From: Candidatus Zhuqueibacterota bacterium
GTDB taxonomy: Bacteria; Zhuqueibacterota; Zhuqueibacteria; Thermofontimicrobiales; Thermofontimicrobiaceae
Assembly (NCBI GenBank): GCA_049322915.1
Contig: JBMOPW010000045.1
Coordinates: 8,106-72,105, forward strand
Direction: 5' to 3'
Length of the DNA stretch: 64,000 nt
Program-made: the position numbers
Shown: positions 47,701 through 53,700 of the stretch, one piece after another
Layout: each line of letters starts with the position of its first letter
How positions within the stretch are numbered: position 1 is the stretch's first letter

Positions 47701-50700
47701 GCAGTTGCATAAATCTCAATGAAAACGAGGCGCTCGATCATGTATGCGAATGCGATGCCTCGGATTATGAAATAGAAATGATCTCGGATTGGACGTAATT
47801 TTGAGTGACAACGACAATGAAGTTGTCATTTGAATTCGAAAACTGCTTTTACGACGGATGAGTTTTTTTTATCGGTAACAATGCGCAGCGCGTCGCGGTA
47901 ATTTTCCAGTCGGAACCGATGGGTGATGAGCCCGTCGAGATTGAGCTTTTTCTCCGTTACAAACCGCATTGCCAGATCGAAGGTCGAAATTTTCTCGCCG
48001 TAAAAATCCTCCTGACCGTGGCAGAAACTGCCCAGTATTTGAATTTCCTGAAATACAATCGGGGTGTAGTCAAACCGGGACGGGCTGTAATCGACGCCGA
48101 CCAGGACGATGGTTCCGCCGGCCTTGCACCAGCGCGCTGCATGGTGTATCGATTCTCCTTTTCCCACGCAATCAAATATCACATCGTAACCGCCTAATAG
48201 CATGTGGTTGTTGAACATGCCGGCGTAATGCTTTGCTCCGGTGATTTCAGCGATTTTTTCGTACTGATTTTTTCCGGAAAGAATGACATCCGCGCCAGCG
48301 CGTTGCGCCAGCTCCATCTGGTAGGGGTGGCGCGCAAGAACGGTGACGCGGCACTCCGGTTGCACGAGCTTGATCACCTTCACCGTCAGCAATCCGATGA
48401 TGCCCGCGCCAATCACCAGCACAGAGTCCCCGGCAGCCGGCTTCTTTTTCAGCACCGCCCGCACAGCGACTGCGGCTGGTTCGATGAGCACGGCCTGGTC
48501 GTCGGTCAGTGAATCGGGCGCAGGCAGGATGTTGCTCTCGTGGCTCAGAAATAATTCACTCCAGCCTCCGCCGATGTTTTCCGGGAGCGTCCCCTCGGAT
48601 TGATTCTCGCACAATGCATAATTCCCTTTGGCGCACTGGGCGCATATCGGCTCGATTTCCTTCTGAAAACAATTCGGCATTGTCTTTTGAAAAATGACGC
48701 GATCTCCAATTTTGAACCCTGTCACGCGCGATCCCACCTCGATCACTTCACCGCAGATTTCATGTCCCAGAAAAACCCGCGAAAGCCCGGGCAGCGCTGC
48801 CAGCGATATTTTGGGATTCGCTTCCAGAAAAAACAGGCTGAGATCGCTGCCACAAATCCCGGACAACCGATTTTTGATGCGCACCCATTTGGATCCTGGC
48901 AAAGGGATTTCTGACAATTCACCGAAGGAGACCGGCGATATACGGCTGTAAAACACGTTTTTCCAGAGCCGGCCGATCACCTGCGTGAGAAGAATTTTGG
49001 GAATATTCAAATCGAAATAGATCGATTTCATTCATGGCCTCCGAAAAGTGAATCCCATTCGCCGCAACTTTAGCTGCTCCTTAATTCGTCATTTTTCCTG
49101 TCGCTGATGAACATGTGCCCCGGCGAATGACTGATGAAAAAATCGAGTCGGGCGCCGGCCGCTGCCAGTTGCGACGTGACGCCGCACGCCCAGAACACCG
49201 GCACTTCGTCTCTGGCAATGGGCACGGCATCCCCGAACGTGGGTCGATGGATGTCGTTAATGCCCAGTTCCCCGGGCCGGGTGATCAGGGTTTTAAAATT
49301 TTCCGGCTGTCGGCACAGCGGGGTTCCGTGTACCGACGGGTAACTGGCTGTGATGTGAAACGCCTGTCTGGCCTGTTTCATGGTCATGGGGCGCATGCTC
49401 ACCACCATTTTTCCGCGAAACGGTCCTGCGGACTGGCAACGAATATTCGTCGTGTACATGGGCACATTTTTATGCAATTCCACGTGCCGAACCGGGATGC
49501 CGGCCTGAATCAGCGCGGCTTCAAAGGTGAAGCTGCATCCCAATAAGAACGCGACCAGGTCCTCGGACCAGTATTCGCGGATATGCAACACATCGCGATG
49601 CCGGGAACTCTTCGCATGAATTCGATACTGCGGGATGTCCGTTCGGATGTCCGCGCCGGGCGCTAAAAAGCGGCTCAGCGGGTCGCCGGGAGCGAGCCTT
49701 TCCAGCAGCGGGCATGGCCTGGGATTGAGGCGGCAGAACTGTTCGAAGTCGGCAGCGTACTGTTTCGGCAGCACCAGCAGATTCATCTGCGCGTGCCCGG
49801 CGCACAGACCGGCGGTCGGCTGCTGCCAGCGCTCCAATCGGATGAGTCGCCGCATTTCGCCGGGGGGCATGATGGCTAATTCATCGTCGGTCAGGTTATA
49901 GCCGCCTCCTCCCGGCGTTTCGATGGAGACGGTATCGCCGGCCTGGCCGCGCAACTGCACCTTGCCGGCCAATGGGACCTGCCGGCCATCCGGCTTCAGC
50001 AGCACATTGCGGCCGGGCGCGCCGCTCTCAGCGCCATGCAGTCCGTAGGGCGCAAACTTGCGTCGTTCGGTGAGCAATGAAATGAGCCGGGATTCATGAA
50101 ATTTAATCTGACGCACCACGCCATTCCCGCCGCAATAATGGCCTTTGCCCCCGCTGTTCGGACGGATGGCGAATTTTTGTACGGAAATTTCAGGGTAGCG
50201 GTGTTCCATCACTTCCGGGTCGGTGATGCGCGTATTGGTCATGTGCGTGTGCACTGCATCCGCGCCATCGAAATGAGCGCCGGCGCCGGCCCCACCGGCG
50301 ATGGTTTCGTAATAGCCAAATCCCTGCTCGCCGAACGTGAAATTGTTCATCGTCCCCTGGGAGGCGGCTGCTTTTTGAAGCGCCAGAAAAAGCACATCCA
50401 CAATTCGCTGGGATGTTTCCACATTGCCTCCGGCCACGGCTGCGCCGGGTCTGGGATTCAGCACCGAGCCGTGAGGAATGTTAATTTTCAACGGCTTGAA
50501 ACAACCGGCATTGAGCGGCACATTGTCCTCGATGAGCGTGCGGAACACATAGAGAATGGCGGATCGAACCACTGCCTGCGGCGCGTTGAGATTGGTGGAG
50601 GTTTGCGGCGATGTGTCCGTGAAATCGATTTCAGCGGCGTTGCCGTGGATGTGAATCGCCACGCGCAATTGCGTGCCATCATCCAGAGAGTCTGTTGCCT

Positions 50701-53700
50701 GGTGAACTCCGTCCGGCAATTGGGCGATGGCGTTCCGCATGGCTTTTTCCGCATTGTCCTGCACATATTGCATGTACGCCTGAACAACCTCGAGCCCGTA
50801 TTCGCGGATCAATTTCTTCAACTCCTGCACACCTCGGACATTGGCCGCCACTTGCGCCCGCAAATCGGACAATCGCTCGGCTATATTCCGCGCCGGGTAT
50901 GGACCGGTTGACAGCGCGCGCGTAATGCCCGATTCATCAAAGACGCCGCCGGCAACCAGCTTGAAATTGGTGATGACCACCCCCTCTTCTGCGAGGCAGG
51001 TTGAAAATGGCGGCATGGAACCGGGCGTAATTCCGCCGATATCGGCATGGTGCCCGCGACTGGCCACGCAAAAAATCAGTTGCCTTAGTTCATCAAAAAC
51101 CGGGGTCACAACGGTCACGTCCGGCAGATGCGAACCGCCGTGATACGGATCGTTTGTGACGAATACATCGCCCGGCGCCAGGGTGTTTTTATTTTGCTCA
51201 ATGATGAACGCCACGGATTCGCCCATGGCGCCCAGATGCACCGGGATGTGCGGTGCATTGGCCACCAGCCCACCGCCGGGATCGAACAAGGCGCAACTGA
51301 AATCGAGGCGCTCTTTGATATTCACTGAAAATGCAGTTCGTTGAAGCGCGCGCCCCATCTGTTCGGCGATGCTCATGAACAGATTATTGAAAATTTCCAG
51401 CATCACCGGATCGCGCTGAATCCCGATGCGCCGTTGTTTCATCGAACTGGCATCGTGTTCGAGGAGGATATGCCCCCGCGAATTGACGCGCGCTTTGAAA
51501 TCCGGCTCAACAAGGATGGTCGAATTGGGCTCCACAATGACTGCTGGCCCAGCCAGCTCGTCCCCTGGTTTTAGCTGATCGCGCATGAACACCGGGGTCT
51601 GGTGATTCCAACCATCTTCAAAATACACTTTATGAAATTGGGCCGCATCGGGTGCGGTGAGCACGCGAGGGATGCAGACCGATTCCGCTTCTTCCGGCTT
51701 CGGTTGAACGCCAATGACTTCGCTGCGGATGTTCACAATTTCCAGGTCCGAATCTGTTCGGAAACCATAATGCCGCTCGTACTGTTCAAAAAATCGCGCC
51801 AGGCAGGATTCGTAGGAATCGAACAGGACGGTCTCCGCGGTGTCCGTTCCCAACGGTCGAATATCGAGATAGCGCCGGATGTGTATCTGGTCGGAAGAAA
51901 TTCCCTCAGCGCAAACCTGGTCGCGCAGCGGTTGTTCCATCGCTTCGAACATCGGCAGCAGCGCGGCCATATTCCCGGCTGAACAGGTGAGAAGAACAGA
52001 GGCGGTCGTCTCGTGAACGATGTCGGCCAGAATCATGCCGTAAGCGGAGAGCACCCCGGCGAATGGGTGGAGCAGGATGGATTTAATTCCGAGCGACCGG
52101 GCGATGGAACAGGCGTGTTGCGCGCCGGCGCCGCCGAAGCAGACAAGCGTGTATTCCTGAATATTGAAGCCGCGCGCCACGGAAATTTCTTTGATGGGCT
52201 TGCACATATTCTCATTGGCGATGCGAATGAAGCCCAGGGCAACCTGCTCCGGCGAATTGACCAGGCCGATCTTTCTCAAAATATCCTGGCTGAATTCCCG
52301 AAATTTGGTCAAGACAATATCGCCATCCAGCGGCAAATTGTGGTCTGGTCCGAAGACCGCCGGAAAGAATTCAGGGATAATGCGGCCCAACAGAAGATTG
52401 GCGTCAGTGATGGCCAGTGGCCCGCCGTTGCGATAACATGCCGGGCCCGGCGATGCCCCGGCGCTATCCGGGCCAACGGACAGTTTCAGTCCATCAAAAT
52501 GAAGGATCGAGCCGCCGCCTGCGGCCACGGTAATCACATGAATCATCGGCGATTGAATGCGGACGCCGGCCGTTTCCGACTCGTACACTTTCTCGACGTG
52601 GCCATTTTCGAAGCGCGAGACATCCGTGGATGTGCCGCCCATATCAAATCCGATGGCCTTTTCAATGCCGAGCGTTTTAGCGATGTGAGCGTACCCGATC
52701 ACGCCGCCGGCCGGGCCGGAAATAATTGCATCCTTCGCAGTGAAGGAATCGGCGGCGATGAGGCCCCCGCTGGACTTCATAAATTTTAATGGAATAGTCC
52801 CGGTGTGCCGGCGAATGTGTCCGATATATTTTTGCAGGATTGGATTCAAGTAGGCATCGACGGTGGCGGTGTCCCCGCGACAGACAATCTTCTGCACGCG
52901 CATGGTTTCCGAAGAGACAGAAATTTGTTCGAAACCGATTTGCCGCGCAACGTGAGCAACCTGTTTTTCGTTAGCATCATTTCGATATGAGTTGAGAAAG
53001 ACAATGGCCAGCGAGGAGTAGCCCTCAGCGAAGACGTCGCGCAGTTGGCGTTCAATTTCCGCCTCGTCCGGGCGAGTCAGGATATTGCCGCGACAGTCTG
53101 TTCGCTCGTCAACTTCAATAACGCGCTGGTACAGGAGGCCTGGCTTACGGATGTTCAACTCGAATAATTTGGGTCGCGATTGGTATCCAATGGCAAGGAT
53201 GTCGCGGAATCCACGGGTTGTCACAAGGCAGACTGGAACGCCTTTTCGTTCCAGCAGCGCGTTTGTAGCGACAGTCGTGCCCATTCGAATGGAGTCGATG
53301 GACTGATTCGAAATGCATTCCTGCCGGGAGAGATTCAAAAGGAGGTAGAGCGCATGAATGGCAGCATCGTCATATTCCCCGGGATTTTCAGAGAGAAGTT
53401 TGCATGTGATAATTTCTCCGCTGGGGGATTTCGCAACAACATCGGTGAAGGTGCCGCCACGATCCATTCCGAAGAGCCATTGATTCTGTTTTTGCATGGC
53501 GCCAATATAAAGAATTTATTCCGGAAAAACAAGAAAAGAGTTGTTATTTTTATCTGAATATTTTATATTTACAAGGCACTGTCTGATTAATCAAGCAAAG
53601 GAATGTATATGAATTTTGAAATGAAAAAGAAATTTGATAAAAACAGTATTCGGGGAATTATTTACTCACTGATTTCTCTGGCTGGTTTGAGTTACGAGCT

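What a model noticed while it worked through the whole genome (the two positions that open the first line are those of the whole stretch)
49070..53497. Eukaryote-type 5-oxoprolinase fused to a D-glutamate cyclase (DUF1445/YcsI) domain
g04513 (1475 aa) is a full HyuA-HyuB type ATP-dependent 5-oxoprolinase, 47% identical to mammalian OPLAH over 1270 residues, extended by a complete D-glutamate cyclase domain. Since the same domain (YcsI) sits in operons of the unrelated bacterial 5-oxoprolinase PxpABC, I propose that the two activities form one pathway: D-glutamate is cyclised to 5-oxo-D-proline and reopened with ATP, giving an ATP-driven D-glutamate salvage or D-to-L conversion. That would give bacterial DUF1445 proteins a role and reveal a 5-oxo-D-proline-using oxoprolinase.
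Evidence so far: pfam.tsv: Hydant_A_N 9-187, Hydantoinase_A 207-496 (E 7e-101), Hydantoinase_B 696-1200 (E 1.6e-206), D-Glu_cyclase 1315-1466 (E 1.5e-55, model 1-143 of 143). swissprot.tsv: 46.8% identity to mouse OPLAH over residues 4-1213. Search with residues 1180-1475: 60 proteins at E<=1e-20, about 45 of them 1400-1720 aa with PF01968+PF02538+PF07286, from KSB1, Dadabacteria, Planctomycetota; names only '5-oxoprolinase' or 'putative hydro-lyase'. A second stand-alone D-glutamate-cyclase-like gene is g04259.
(Added by a program. Inside this text positions count along the whole contig: contig position 8,106 is position 1 of the stretch shown here. "Call 12" and the like, gene names such as g00115 and contig names such as C1 are that model's own, and its searches are not shown. 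The text may have been shortened before it was handed on; [...] marks where a part breaks off. The agent that wrote the report below was given it as the finding of a first reader that could run no searches.)

Follow-up and report, generated by a model that had tools for sequence, protein, structure and literature searches.

The report
Oxoprolinase fused to YcsI-type enzyme
One long bacterial gene joins the ATP-driven enzyme that reopens pyroglutamate (5-oxoproline) to a relative of half of the animal D-glutamate cyclase, tying that poorly understood family to pyroglutamate metabolism and making its role testable.

Summary
Window 49070-53497 (-) is one uninterrupted 1,475-aa ORF. It joins a complete long-form (HyuA-HyuB, OPLAH-type) ATP-dependent 5-oxoprolinase to a complete YcsI/DUF1445 enzyme across a joint of about five residues.

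The fusion is genuine and recurrent:
- 46 of 60 long homologues share it.
- Three genomes of this phylum carry it.
- A second fusion exists in the reverse order.

Elsewhere, DUF1445 genes lie beside PxpABC (28 of 80 loci) and beside or fused to OPLAH-type genes. They also co-occur with DUF4392, the other half of animal D-glutamate cyclase: in a 401-genome Planctomycetota sample, 24 of 25 DUF4392 genomes carry DUF1445. This genome has DUF4392 on another contig.

Cyclising D-glutamate and reopening 5-oxo-D-proline simply returns D-glutamate. The oxoprolinase half is also the genome's only candidate for 5-oxo-L-proline and does not form a separate clade.

I favour (0.35) a D-to-L funnel with an undiscovered inversion at the lactam stage. 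Parallel handling of the two enantiomers is the main rival. I found no paper on this. Earlier notes of this scan report the same three-module association on other DNA.

Verdict: new variant of a known kind; interest 0.6.

The parts
49070..53497 (-). Whole fused ORF, 1475 aa (P0001), stop codon included
   Evidence: The same architecture occurs in G124 (1477 aa) and G137 (1475 aa) of the same phylum.
51479..53473 (-). HyuA-type half of the oxoprolinase (residues 9-673): the ATP-binding, substrate-phosphorylating part
   Evidence: Pfam Hydant_A_N, Hydantoinase_A and Hydant_A_C. Phosphate motifs DRGGTFTD 12-19 and DMGGTSTD 285-292, and adenosine motif GASPGP 347-352. The motif definitions are from PMC8453981 (passages).
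49898..51412 (-). HyuB-type half (residues 696-1200): the metal site and ring-opening part
   Evidence: Pfam Hydantoinase_B, E 4.3e-206. Alignment to caprolactamase CapB (6yra_B) puts D732, H790, D793 and H816 on its Asp41/His99/Asp102/His124 metal ligands (ligand list from PMC8453981).
49883..49897 (-). Joint (residues 1201-1205) between the HyuB end and the start of the YcsI-type protein
   Evidence: Model boundaries. The AF2 model of residues 690-1475 has pLDDT 92-96 through the joint and pTM 0.87.
49079..49882 (-). Complete YcsI/DUF1445 (UPF0317, 'putative hydro-lyase') domain, residues 1206-1473
   Evidence: NCBIfam PRK05463 is above its cut-off and PF07286 matches full length. PDB 3db9/2pif, E about 3e-67. 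AF2 model pLDDT 93; VIA Z 31.9 to 2pif. Invariant in 139 of 139 family rows: Q1237, N1239, N1258, C1321, S1322, R1369, H1390, C1438, H1457.
47826..49031 (-). Zinc-type alcohol dehydrogenase gene 38 bp downstream on the same strand; a neighbour, probably not part of the system
   Evidence: Pfam ADH_N and ADH_zinc_N. It is kept only in the same-genus genome G124. G137 has a GFO/IDH/MocA oxidoreductase there instead.

Best explanation
SHOWN
- The gene encodes a single polypeptide made of an intact long-form (OPLAH-type) ATP-dependent 5-oxoprolinase and an intact YcsI/DUF1445 enzyme.
- The DUF1445 half has the same invariant residues as the N-terminal half of animal D-glutamate cyclase.
- The gene is one member of a rare fusion family and belongs to a recurrent three-module set: a 5-oxoprolinase (OPLAH-type or PxpABC), DUF1445 and, often, DUF4392. 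Here DUF4392 is encoded on another contig.

INFERRED
- The oxoprolinase half opens 5-oxo-L-proline to L-glutamate at the cost of ATP, because it is the genome's only candidate for that unavoidable job.
- The DUF1445 half, with DUF4392, works on the D series (D-glutamate / 5-oxo-D-proline), as the animal two-domain enzyme does.

MECHANISM I COMMIT TO (about 0.35)
The set is a one-way funnel from the D series to L-glutamate:
1. D-glutamate, for example from cell-wall material, is closed to 5-oxo-D-proline, or 5-oxo-D-proline arises spontaneously.
2. The lactam is inverted to 5-oxo-L-proline by one of the two uncharacterised modules. DUF1445 is my first candidate, because it also accompanies oxoprolinases where DUF4392 is absent.
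3. The fused oxoprolinase pulls the sequence forward by ATP-driven ring opening.

In this reading the fusion puts the inverting step next to the enzyme that consumes its product. That the general functional coupling is real I rate at about 0.85. The inversion step is the unproven part.
For: Coupling of DUF1445 to 5-oxoprolinases:
- 46 of 60 long homologues have the same HyuA-HyuB-DUF1445 order.
- P0058 has the reverse order, with DUF1445 at residues 12-274. It branches elsewhere on both the DUF1445 tree and the HyuB tree (sister to an unfused gene, support 100), so it is an independent fusion.
- In 80 loci from many phyla, the top neighbour families are PxpC (26 loci), PxpB (21) and PxpA (20). 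Pxp genes lie within 6 kb in 28 of 80 loci and HyuA in 3 more. L057 has an unfused 1268-aa OPLAH gene 2.8 kb upstream.
- In a Planctomycetota panel, 27 of 31 DUF1445 genomes have a HyuB match at least 52% identical to ours, against 4 of 40 background genomes. In G264, G239 and G513 the two genes are adjacent.

Coupling to DUF4392:
- It is adjacent in 10 of 80 loci, with a median gap of 48 bp, always on the same strand.
- In 401 Planctomycetota genomes, DUF1445 is in 31 and DUF4392 in 25, with both in 24 (Fisher p 3e-31, not corrected for kinship).
- All 3 fusion genomes of this phylum have DUF4392, against 7 of the other 164 genomes.
- DUF4392 is present in 13 of 28 genomes whose DUF1445 gene lies beside Pxp genes.
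- The two are fused in bacteria (DUF4392 first) and in animals (DUF1445 first).

Both halves look active:
- ATP motifs and metal ligands are present.
- DUF1445 invariants are intact and shared with animal cyclases: Cys1321 in 12 of 14 and Cys1438 in 13 of 14.

L-activity of the oxoprolinase half:
- There is one HyuB gene and no PxpA in the genome.
- DUF1445-free oxoprolinases are interspersed with linked ones, with at least 5 label changes forced on the tree.

For an inversion step by DUF1445:
- DUF1445 occurs with an oxoprolinase but without DUF4392. This holds in 15 of the 28 Pxp-adjacent genomes and in the B. subtilis and C. glutamicum controls, so it must make sense with the ring-opener alone.
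- Two invariant cysteines each sit at a strand-to-helix turn. This is the layout I recall from two-thiol racemases.
- The model of residues 690-1475 packs the domain rigidly on HyuB (pTM 0.87).

Chemical logic (my inference): without inversion, cyclise-and-reopen is futile.
Against: - No activity was measured, and no tool here can show a racemase.
- The purified two-domain mouse enzyme was assayed against both 5-oxo-D- and 5-oxo-L-proline standards. It is reported to make 5-oxo-D-proline and to have no glutamate racemase activity (PMC5339696, passages). If either domain racemised free 5-oxoproline, an L product should have been seen. I could not see the figure or the supplement.
- That paper does not say which domain carries the cyclase activity, so 'DUF1445 = cyclase' and 'DUF1445 = invertase' are both open.
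- The two-cysteine argument is weak. The profile comparison of the two halves aligns only 26 columns (P 0.04).
- Co-occurrence counts are not phylogenetically independent.
- Humans excrete 5-oxo-D-proline (cited in PMC5339696). This argues that animals, which have all three modules, do not run an efficient funnel.
Confidence: 0.35

Rival explanations
1. Parallel handling of the two enantiomers, with no inversion. The oxoprolinase half opens 5-oxo-L-proline with ATP. The DUF1445 half (with DUF4392) runs the known reversible D-glutamate / 5-oxo-D-proline reaction, so that 5-oxo-D-proline is drained to D-glutamate, which the cell wall, a racemase or a transaminase then uses. The fusion merely co-expresses two enzymes for one racemic nutrient or damage product.
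For: - It needs no new chemistry and agrees with the mouse enzyme's reported product.
- DUF1445 often lies in loci with importers and a ring-opener: Liv-type ABC components in 17, 9 and 6 loci, and Nramp in 15.
- Earlier notes e1-4191127 and e1-2158882 read such loci as pyroglutamate uptake loci.
- Genomes with DUF1445 beside Pxp genes but no DUF4392 mostly have a canonical MurI (13 of 15), which could take the D-glutamate.
Against: - Ring opening without ATP is uphill; that is why both known 5-oxoprolinases spend ATP (established, recalled). In the downhill direction the enzyme would drain the cell's D-glutamate into a dead end.
- Two independent fusions and a predicted rigid domain packing are more than co-expression needs.
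- 0 of 24 Planctomycetota genomes with DUF1445+DUF4392 have a canonical MurI to take up the D-glutamate.
Confidence: 0.25
2. Shared-kinase D-oxoprolinase. The HyuA part phosphorylates 5-oxo-D-proline as well as the L form. DUF1445 (a hydro-lyase) and DUF4392 (a di-manganese phosphatase-like enzyme) then process the phosphorylated D intermediate that HyuB cannot handle. The product is either D-glutamate or, after epimerisation of the activated lactam, L-glutamate.
For: - DUF4392 (TON_0340) has a small di-Mn pocket and weak phosphatase activity on small phosphate esters. Its authors expected one small common substrate (PMC5132392, passages).
- HyuA/HyuB enzymes pass a phosphorylated substrate through an internal channel, and a HyuAB hydantoinase is described as non-stereospecific (PMC8453981, passages).
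- DUF1445 accompanies both unrelated ATP-dependent ring-openers.
- The joint to HyuB is tight.
- It would explain why the isolated animal enzyme shows no racemase activity.
Against: - It is entirely inferential.
- DUF1445 occurs without DUF4392 in 15 of 28 genomes whose DUF1445 gene lies beside Pxp genes.
- No OPLAH-DUF4392 fusion appeared among the 76 long DUF4392 homologues.
- The mouse cyclase is described as mitochondrial; the cytosolic location of OPLAH is recalled.
Confidence: 0.1
3. Feeder enzyme. DUF1445 makes 5-oxo-L-proline from some other glutamyl compound (a gamma-glutamyl amide or peptide, or glutamine), as gamma-glutamylcyclotransferase does upstream of OPLAH in the animal gamma-glutamyl cycle.
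For: - Sequential enzymes are the commonest kind of fusion.
- DUF1445 lies near amino-acid-type ABC importers.
- The pairing of a cyclotransferase with OPLAH is established (recalled).
Against: - The only assayed relative acts on free D-glutamate.
- The invariant residues are the same in animal cyclases and in this domain, which argues for the same substrate.
Confidence: 0.08
4. D-glutamate supply. The three modules make D-glutamate for the cell wall in lineages without a canonical glutamate racemase, with the ATP-driven ring opening acting on 5-oxo-D-proline.
For: - Canonical MurI (TIGR00067 over its cut-off) is found in 0 of 24 Planctomycetota genomes with DUF1445+DUF4392, against 6 of 40 background genomes and 1 of 7 DUF1445-only genomes.
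- In genomes whose DUF1445 gene lies beside Pxp genes, MurI is in 4 of 13 with DUF4392 against 13 of 15 without (Fisher p 0.006).
- Many DUF4392 proteins are fused to a MurD-like part.
Against: - The comparison is confounded by phylogeny: the DUF4392-free set is mostly Bacilli, and 34 of 40 background Planctomycetota also lack MurI.
- In the window's own order every genome carries the same sub-cut-off MurI-like gene, whether or not it has the fusion.
- The route needs the oxoprolinase to prefer the D form, for which the tree gives no sign.
Confidence: 0.08
5. One reading: D-glutamate is cyclised and the same 5-oxo-D-proline is reopened with ATP by the fused oxoprolinase.
For: - The domain names and the fusion itself.
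- A HyuAB enzyme can be non-stereospecific.
Against: - The net reaction is ATP hydrolysis only, because C2 is untouched by both steps (chemical inference).
- There is no separate oxoprolinase clade.
Confidence: 0.04

Closest known systems
Eukaryote-type 5-oxoprolinase (OPLAH of mammals, OXP1 of yeast): one chain, HyuA part then HyuB part
   Same: The domain order is the same. ATP motifs and metal ligands are present. The length of the first 1200 residues matches.
   Different: It carries an extra complete 270-residue enzyme at the C-terminus. No solved OPLAH structure turned up, and the nearest solved chain is an N-methylhydantoinase. The substrate was not assayed.
Animal D-glutamate cyclase (DGLUCY / C14orf159 / 9030617O03Rik), Ariyoshi et al. 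2017, PMC5339696
   Same: Its N-terminal domain belongs to the same family and keeps the same invariant residues. Its second domain, DUF4392, is also encoded in this genome.
   Different: In animals DUF1445 is fused to DUF4392, not to the oxoprolinase. Here DUF4392 is a separate, unlinked gene. Which animal domain is catalytic is not stated in the passages I read.
Bacillus subtilis pxpA(ycsF)-ycsG-ycsI(pxpI)-pxpB(kipI)-pxpC(kipA) operon with the PxpABC 5-oxoprolinase (Niehaus et al. 2017, cited in PMC10448178; not held)
   Same: A YcsI-type gene is tied to an ATP-dependent 5-oxoprolinase. I found this arrangement in 28 of 80 loci.
   Different: The ring-opener is of the unrelated HyuA/HyuB kind. 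It is fused rather than adjacent. This genome has no PxpA.
Hydantoin racemase working with a hydantoinase, and N-acyl-amino-acid racemases working with acylases (recalled, from no call)
   Same: This is a works-like comparison only. A racemase for a cyclic or N-acylated amino acid feeds a ring- or amide-opening enzyme, so that both enantiomers end as one amino acid.
   Different: DUF1445 shows no fold likeness to those racemases (see Tried and rejected). No racemase activity is known for it.
TON_0340 of Thermococcus onnurineus (DUF4392), PMC5132392
   Same: It belongs to the family of this genome's unlinked third module. That paper already noted the DUF1445-DUF4392 fusion of vertebrates and proposed sequentially linked functions.
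   Different: It is not part of the gene in the window. Its only measured activity is a weak Mn-dependent phosphatase.

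Membership tests
HyuA/HyuB ATP-dependent lactam hydrolases, long-form 5-oxoprolinase (OPLAH type) | Hydant_A_N, Hydantoinase_A and Hydantoinase_B domains in one chain in that order | tested here: met
   Pfam, residues 9-187, 207-496 and 696-1200, all far above their cut-offs
HyuA/HyuB ATP-dependent lactam hydrolases, long-form 5-oxoprolinase (OPLAH type) | ATP site motifs DxGGTxTD, DxGGT and GxxPGP (as defined in PMC8453981) | tested here: met
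   DRGGTFTD 12-19, DMGGTSTD 285-292, GASPGP 347-352
HyuA/HyuB ATP-dependent lactam hydrolases, long-form 5-oxoprolinase (OPLAH type) | Asp-His-Asp-His metal ligands of the HyuB part | tested here: met
   D732, H790, D793 and H816 align to CapB Asp41, His99, Asp102 and His124
HyuA/HyuB ATP-dependent lactam hydrolases, long-form 5-oxoprolinase (OPLAH type) | Closer to proven 5-oxoprolinases than to hydantoinases, caprolactamase or carboxylases | tested here: inconclusive
NCBIfam caprolactamase and acetophenone-carboxylase equivalogs are far below their cut-offs (357.8 of 1000; 183.7 of 1500). The N-methylhydantoinase 7hk5 scores only 464 bits over 1200 residues.
HyuA/HyuB ATP-dependent lactam hydrolases, long-form 5-oxoprolinase (OPLAH type) | ATP-dependent opening of 5-oxo-L-proline to L-glutamate | not testable with these tools
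   Indirect only: it is the sole HyuB gene and the genome has no PxpA
YcsI / DUF1445 / UPF0317 ('putative hydro-lyase', Pfam D-Glu_cyclase) | Full-length match to the family models above the curated cut-offs | tested here: met
   PF07286 positions 1-143 of 143 at 186 bits (cut-off 25). NCBIfam PRK05463 positions 6-264 of 266 at 346.9 bits (cut-off 324)
YcsI / DUF1445 / UPF0317 ('putative hydro-lyase', Pfam D-Glu_cyclase) | Fold of the solved members 2pif and 3db9 | tested here: met
   AF2 model pLDDT 93. Foldseek E 7e-29, TM 0.84-0.90. VIA Z 31.9, rmsd 2.4 over 247 residues
YcsI / DUF1445 / UPF0317 ('putative hydro-lyase', Pfam D-Glu_cyclase) | Family-invariant polar residues (Q, N, N, GCS, R, HGP, FWCGV, H) | tested here: met
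   All are present in P0001 and invariant in 139 of 139 rows. They are shared with most of 14 animal cyclase sequences.
D-glutamate cyclase (EC 4.2.1.48) in the sense of the assayed animal enzyme | Two-domain make-up, DUF1445 plus DUF4392, in one protein | tested here: not met
   Only DUF1445 is in this protein. DUF4392 is a separate gene on contig C39.
D-glutamate cyclase (EC 4.2.1.48) in the sense of the assayed animal enzyme | Conversion of D-glutamate to 5-oxo-D-proline | not testable with these tools
   Assayed only for the mouse two-domain protein (PMC5339696). The catalytic domain is not assigned there.
Cofactor-independent two-thiol racemases (works-like comparison only) | Known racemase fold (Asp/Glu/hydantoin racemase, DAP-epimerase-like) | tested here: inconclusive
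   Besides 2pif and 3db9, only 3nek reached Z 9.6; the remaining rows were at most 4.3. A weak or missing match does not exclude a family.
Cofactor-independent two-thiol racemases (works-like comparison only) | Two conserved cysteines on opposed, related half-domains | tested here: inconclusive
   C1321 and C1438 are invariant and each lies at a strand-to-helix turn of the model. The halves align over only 26 columns, P 0.04. No coordinates were available to measure their distance.

The most novel reading that the evidence does not exclude
One of the two uncharacterised modules, most likely DUF1445, is a 5-oxoproline racemase or epimerase, an activity not known so far, acting on the free lactam or on its phosphorylated form inside the oxoprolinase. 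[quoted passage not shown] This converter would be built from the same three modules in bacteria (oxoprolinase-DUF1445 plus DUF4392) and in animals (OPLAH plus DUF1445-DUF4392).
Probability: 0.3. Interest if true: 0.8.

Novelty: new variant of a known kind. Interest (0 to 1): 0.6.

Why it matters
YcsI/DUF1445 is a very large bacterial family: at least 7,999 clusters at E <= 1e-10. It has two solved structures and no known role. In the full-text library I found nothing on its bacterial function.

The fate of 5-oxo-D-proline, the lactam of the cell-wall amino acid D-glutamate, is also unknown in bacteria; I found no paper on that either.

This fusion, its reversed-order twin and the strong co-occurrence with DUF4392 put three modules into one system and name the missing step, stereo-inversion. 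A handful of chiral enzyme assays could then settle the matter.

If the funnel is real, it would have three consequences:
- It adds a route for recycling D-glutamate from bacterial necromass.
- It explains the extra gene of the B. subtilis pxp operon.
- It prompts a re-reading of the animal pair DGLUCY and OPLAH.

If the funnel is not real, the gene is still a clean example of a bifunctional pyroglutamate enzyme, probably acquired laterally.

Tried and rejected
- **Fold search for a known catalytic fold.** Foldseek against the PDB gave only 2pif and 3db9, then the NrpR-like MJ0159 (3nek, E 6e-4). The VIA search of 48,161 chains gave 2pif at Z 31.9 and 3nek_B at Z 9.6 over 168 residues; nothing else exceeded 4.3. 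No racemase, hydrolase or lyase fold appeared. This shows nothing either way.
- **Internal duplication test.** A profile-against-profile comparison of the two halves aligned only the two cysteine units (26 columns, P 0.04). This is too weak to use.
- **Complex prediction** of the DUF1445 domain (A1) with this genome's DUF4392 protein (A2) returned 'no answer', score 0.00.
- **Sequencing runs.** No RNA holder is listed. Of 6 runs listed, 4 were laid. They were contigs only, in short pieces, and none bridged the joint, so nothing was learned about expression or the junction.
- **Downstream Zn-dehydrogenase as a pathway partner.** Rejected. It is kept only within the genus, and G137 has a different oxidoreductase there.
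- **Neighbours of the DUF4392 gene on C39.** These are a 1606-aa subtilase, a SpoU methylase and a GMC oxidoreductase, and they give no functional clue.
- **MurI complementarity.** It is suggestive in two panels but confounded by phylogeny and absent in the window's own order. I kept it only as a low-ranked rival and a side note.
- **'HyuB+DUF1445 only' proteins as split forms** (P0017, P0026, P0041). They are probably truncated. P0017 starts inside HyuA, and P0041 is called partial by its source.
- **Literature.** Niehaus et al. 2017 is not held. The C. glutamicum pxpTABC paper has no mention of the D form, DUF1445 or a hydro-lyase. The C. difficile KipOTIA preprint only names pxpI as absent there. 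A search for 'pxpI' gave only unrelated hits. Supplements of PMC5339696, which hold its assay details, were not opened.
- **Neighbour survey caveat.** My ORF picker lost the DUF1445 gene itself in 26 of 80 loci, because of antisense ORFs in GC-rich DNA. The neighbour counts are therefore lower bounds, and the 40 'none' loci include short contigs as well as L057 and L027, which do have OPLAH-type genes further off.

Full report
**1. The observation**

Window 49070-53497 (minus strand) is a single ORF of 1,475 codons with an ATG start.

Pfam finds Hydant_A_N (9-187), Hydantoinase_A (207-496), Hydant_A_C (621-673), Hydantoinase_B (696-1200) and D-Glu_cyclase/PF07286 (1315-1466, full model). NCBIfam's whole-protein model for YcsI-type 'putative hydro-lyase' (PRK05463) matches residues 1206-1473 above its curated cut-off. 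The HyuB part ends with ETPGGGGY at residue 1200. So two complete enzymes are joined by about five residues.

The same ORF architecture is present in a same-genus genome (G124, 1477 aa) and a same-order genome (G137, 1475 aa). It also appears in 46 of 60 long database homologues found with the C-terminal 286 residues. It is therefore not an assembly or frameshift artefact.

- The 'second D-glutamate-cyclase-like gene' is a DUF4392 (PF14336) gene on contig C39, not a second PF07286 gene.
- The 47% identity to mouse OPLAH could not be re-tested with the tools at hand.

**2. Both halves look catalytically whole**

The HyuA part carries the two phosphate motifs and the adenosine motif defined for this enzyme family. 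The HyuB part keeps the Asp-His-Asp-His metal ligands of caprolactamase CapB, as D732, H790, D793 and H816.

The DUF1445 part folds with high confidence (pLDDT 93) into the fold of the two structural-genomics entries 2pif and 3db9. It keeps every residue that is invariant in a 139-row alignment of fused and free family members: Q1237, N1239, N1258, G-C-S 1320-1322, R1369, H-G-P 1390-1393, F-W-x-C-G-V 1435-1440 and H1457. Most of 14 animal D-glutamate cyclase sequences retrieved here carry the same residues.

**3. Setting in the genome**

The gene has no conserved operon partner. The zinc-type dehydrogenase 38 bp downstream is kept only in the same genus, and the upstream gene is a divergent TPR protein.

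The gene's G+C content is 56.6%, against a genome mean of 48.8%. Only 0.9% of 3,054 windows of the same size reach that value.

Within the phylum, PF07286 occurs in 4 of 167 genomes. That phylum is probably KSB1, judged from the source name of the homologue that matches G137. Three of the four genomes carry the fusion and one a free gene.

With the HyuB part as query, only 1 of 13 other genomes of the family and 1 of 5 genomes of the neighbouring family have this gene (that tally of 38 of 167 includes the unpublished genome G162, on which nothing else rests). The C-terminal domain of our protein is closer to metagenomic and 'Dadabacteria' homologues (67-70% identity) than to G137's (58%). Lateral acquisition is the simplest reading.

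At 50% clustering, only about six clusters among the best 150 hits to a junction-spanning query are fused forms. The architecture is therefore rare.

**4. Is the fusion functionally meaningful?**

Three independent lines say yes.

(a) Neighbourhoods.
- From 80 DUF1445 loci in many phyla I clustered all neighbouring ORFs without prior labels and only then named the clusters.
- The commonest neighbours were PxpC (26 loci), PxpB (21), PxpA (20), Nramp (15) and DUF4392 (11). Liv-type ABC transporter parts and HyuA also appeared.
- Within 6 kb, 28 of 80 loci have Pxp genes, 10 have DUF4392 and 3 have HyuA. These are lower bounds, because of short contigs and ORF-calling losses.

(b) Repeated fusion.
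- Besides the C-terminal fusions (49 rows; one or two origins on the DUF1445 tree), P0058 has DUF1445 at the N-terminus of a HyuA-HyuB chain.
- It sits elsewhere on both the DUF1445 and the HyuB trees.

(c) Phyletic pattern in a second phylum, from a sample of 401 Planctomycetota genomes.
- DUF1445 occurs in 31 genomes: 7 full fusions and 5 probable fragments of fusions, the rest free.
- Of those 31, 27 have a HyuB match at least 52% identical to ours, against 4 of 40 background genomes chosen by handle number beforehand.
- In several genomes the free DUF1445 gene directly follows the unfused oxoprolinase gene.
- PxpA is rare there: 5 of 72 genomes. Two of those are DUF1445 genomes that lack DUF4392.

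**5. A third module**

DUF4392 is the other domain of the animal D-glutamate cyclase (PMC5339696 and PMC5132392, passages).

- In the same 401 genomes it is present in 25, and 24 of these also have DUF1445; chance would give about 2.
- 11 of the 12 fusion-type genomes have it.
- In the window's phylum all three fusion genomes have it, against 7 of the other 164.
- Among 28 genomes whose DUF1445 gene lies beside Pxp genes, 13 have it. B. subtilis and C. glutamicum have DUF1445 and PxpA but no DUF4392 (controls).
- DUF4392 and DUF1445 are also fused to each other. In bacteria the order is DUF4392-DUF1445 (18 clusters; the order was checked in 8). In animals it is the opposite. Some are further joined to a MurD-like part.

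The picture is a three-module set, oxoprolinase + DUF1445 ± DUF4392, wired together in different pairwise ways in different lineages. Earlier notes of this scan reported the same association in operons of other genomes. I treated them as leads and re-derived the association from my own calls.

**6. What the chemistry allows**

Neither step touches C2, so the product is D-glutamate again and only ATP is consumed. For the modules to make a useful pathway, one of the following must hold:
- (i) some step inverts configuration;
- (ii) the two halves work in parallel on the two enantiomers;
- (iii) the uncharacterised modules act on an activated intermediate of the oxoprolinase.

The oxoprolinase half is unlikely to be a dedicated D-enzyme:
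- It is the only HyuB gene, and there is no PxpA in a 96%-complete genome.
- DUF1445-free long-form oxoprolinases are interspersed among DUF1445-linked ones on the HyuB tree, with at least five label changes forced by well-supported branches.

**7. The mechanism I favour, and its weakness**

DUF1445 is my first candidate for the inverting step, for three reasons:
- It accompanies oxoprolinases even where DUF4392 is absent.
- It has two invariant cysteines, each at a strand-to-helix turn.
- It is predicted to pack rigidly on HyuB (pTM 0.87 for residues 690-1475, with high confidence through the joint).

DUF4392, a di-manganese enzyme, would then be the cyclase proper. As I recall, racemases paired with ring- or amide-opening enzymes are a known design; hydantoin racemase and N-acyl-amino-acid racemase are examples.

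The evidence against is real:
- The purified mouse two-domain enzyme was analysed against both 5-oxoproline enantiomer standards. It is reported to yield the D product, with no glutamate racemase activity.
- The fold resembles no known racemase.
- The half-against-half similarity is weak.

**8. Rivals**

- Parallel enantiomer handling (0.25) needs no new chemistry. It leaves an uphill ring opening, or a drain on D-glutamate, and does not explain repeated fusion.
- A shared-kinase model (0.10) has DUF1445 and DUF4392 process a phosphorylated D intermediate. It fits the phosphatase-like site of DUF4392 and the channelled mechanism of HyuA/HyuB enzymes, but it is pure inference.
- A feeder role from other glutamyl compounds (0.08), a D-glutamate supply route in MurI-poor lineages (0.08) and the literal futile cycle (0.04) rank lower.
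- The MurI pattern that prompted the supply idea is 0 of 24, 1 of 7 and 6 of 40 in Planctomycetota, and 4 of 13 against 13 of 15 in genomes whose DUF1445 gene lies beside Pxp genes. It is confounded by phylogeny and disappears in the window's own order.

**9. Known or new?**

The parts are known families, and the proteins are in public databases under generic names. The pxp-operon position of ycsI is recognised in the gene name pxpI. The vertebrate DUF1445-DUF4392 fusion was noted in 2016.

I found no paper on any of the following:
- a bacterial function of DUF1445;
- an oxoprolinase-DUF1445 fusion;
- bacterial 5-oxo-D-proline metabolism;
- a 5-oxoproline racemase.

Niehaus et al. 2017 could not be read and may comment on ycsI.

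I class the gene as a new variant of a known kind: a 5-oxoprolinase system with a fused accessory enzyme of unknown reaction. Its value is that it turns an open question into a short list of chiral assays.

Noticed in passing
G000:C39:8375-9397 (-), outside the window (locus L099): This is a stand-alone DUF4392/PF14336 gene (340 aa), the third module of the system. It lies after a 1606-aa subtilase gene and opposite a SpoU methylase gene. The same arrangement is seen in G124, and the SpoU neighbour is also seen in G137.
   Followed up: yes
Planctomycetota panel and the 28-genome panel in which DUF1445 lies beside Pxp genes: Among DUF1445 genomes, those with DUF4392 tend to lack a canonical glutamate racemase (0 of 24; 4 of 13). 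Those without DUF4392 tend to have one (1 of 7 over the cut-off plus 2 weaker hits; 13 of 15). The comparison is post hoc and confounded by phylogeny.
   Followed up: partly
G000:C12:26131-26823 (-) (loci L004, L104): The genome's only Asp/Glu-racemase-family hit scores 72.9 bits against the MurI model (cut-off 146.65) in a 358-aa frame. The same sub-cut-off gene is present throughout the order. It is either a divergent MurI or another racemase.
   Followed up: partly
(phylum-wide PF14336 matches): DUF4392 comes in two forms: one matches the Pfam model in a single stretch (about 180-270 bits) and the other matches in two stretches (about 120-140 plus 60-95 bits). In the window's phylum the two-stretch form occurs in genomes without DUF1445. 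In Planctomycetota it occurs with free DUF1445.
   Followed up: no
P0059 (941 aa), P0051/P0052/P0056 (813-844 aa): DUF1445 is also fused to a PAS/histidine-kinase/receiver protein and to AAA-type (PF13191/PF13401) proteins. The invariant residues are largely kept, so these may be enzyme-linked sensors. The nearest other fold is the NrpR-like protein MJ0159 (3nek, Z 9.6).
   Followed up: partly
P0020, P0023, P0027, P0037, P0038 and about 35 proteins: There are many bacterial proteins of DUF4392 plus a MurD-like ligase part (PF08245, PF21799), some with DUF1445 at the C-terminus. This links the modules to the enzyme that adds D-glutamate to the cell-wall precursor.
   Followed up: no
window 49070-53497 against the genome: The fusion gene is a compositional outlier: 56.6% G+C and GC3 0.66, against a genome mean of 48.8%. 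The DUF1445 part is the richest at 59.5%, and the downstream dehydrogenase is at 52.2%.
   Followed up: yes
window 38883-42332 (+): This 1149-aa protein with a signal-like start is made almost wholly of bacterial SH3 repeats (13 SH3_3 stretches, 568 bits) around a Ser/Gly-rich spacer.
   Followed up: partly
window 34917-36632 (-), 44328-46769 (+), 56516-58237 (+): These are ordinary housekeeping neighbours: RecJ, an SbcC/Rad50-like ATPase, SmpB and tyrosyl-tRNA synthetase.
   Followed up: yes
window 50410-50700 and 52643-52985 (runs X3, X4): 151-base contigs with no differences from the window occur in two sediment libraries labelled RNA-Seq (the label is a guess, per the tool). A very close relative therefore lives in a second habitat, but nothing can be said on expression.
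   Followed up: no
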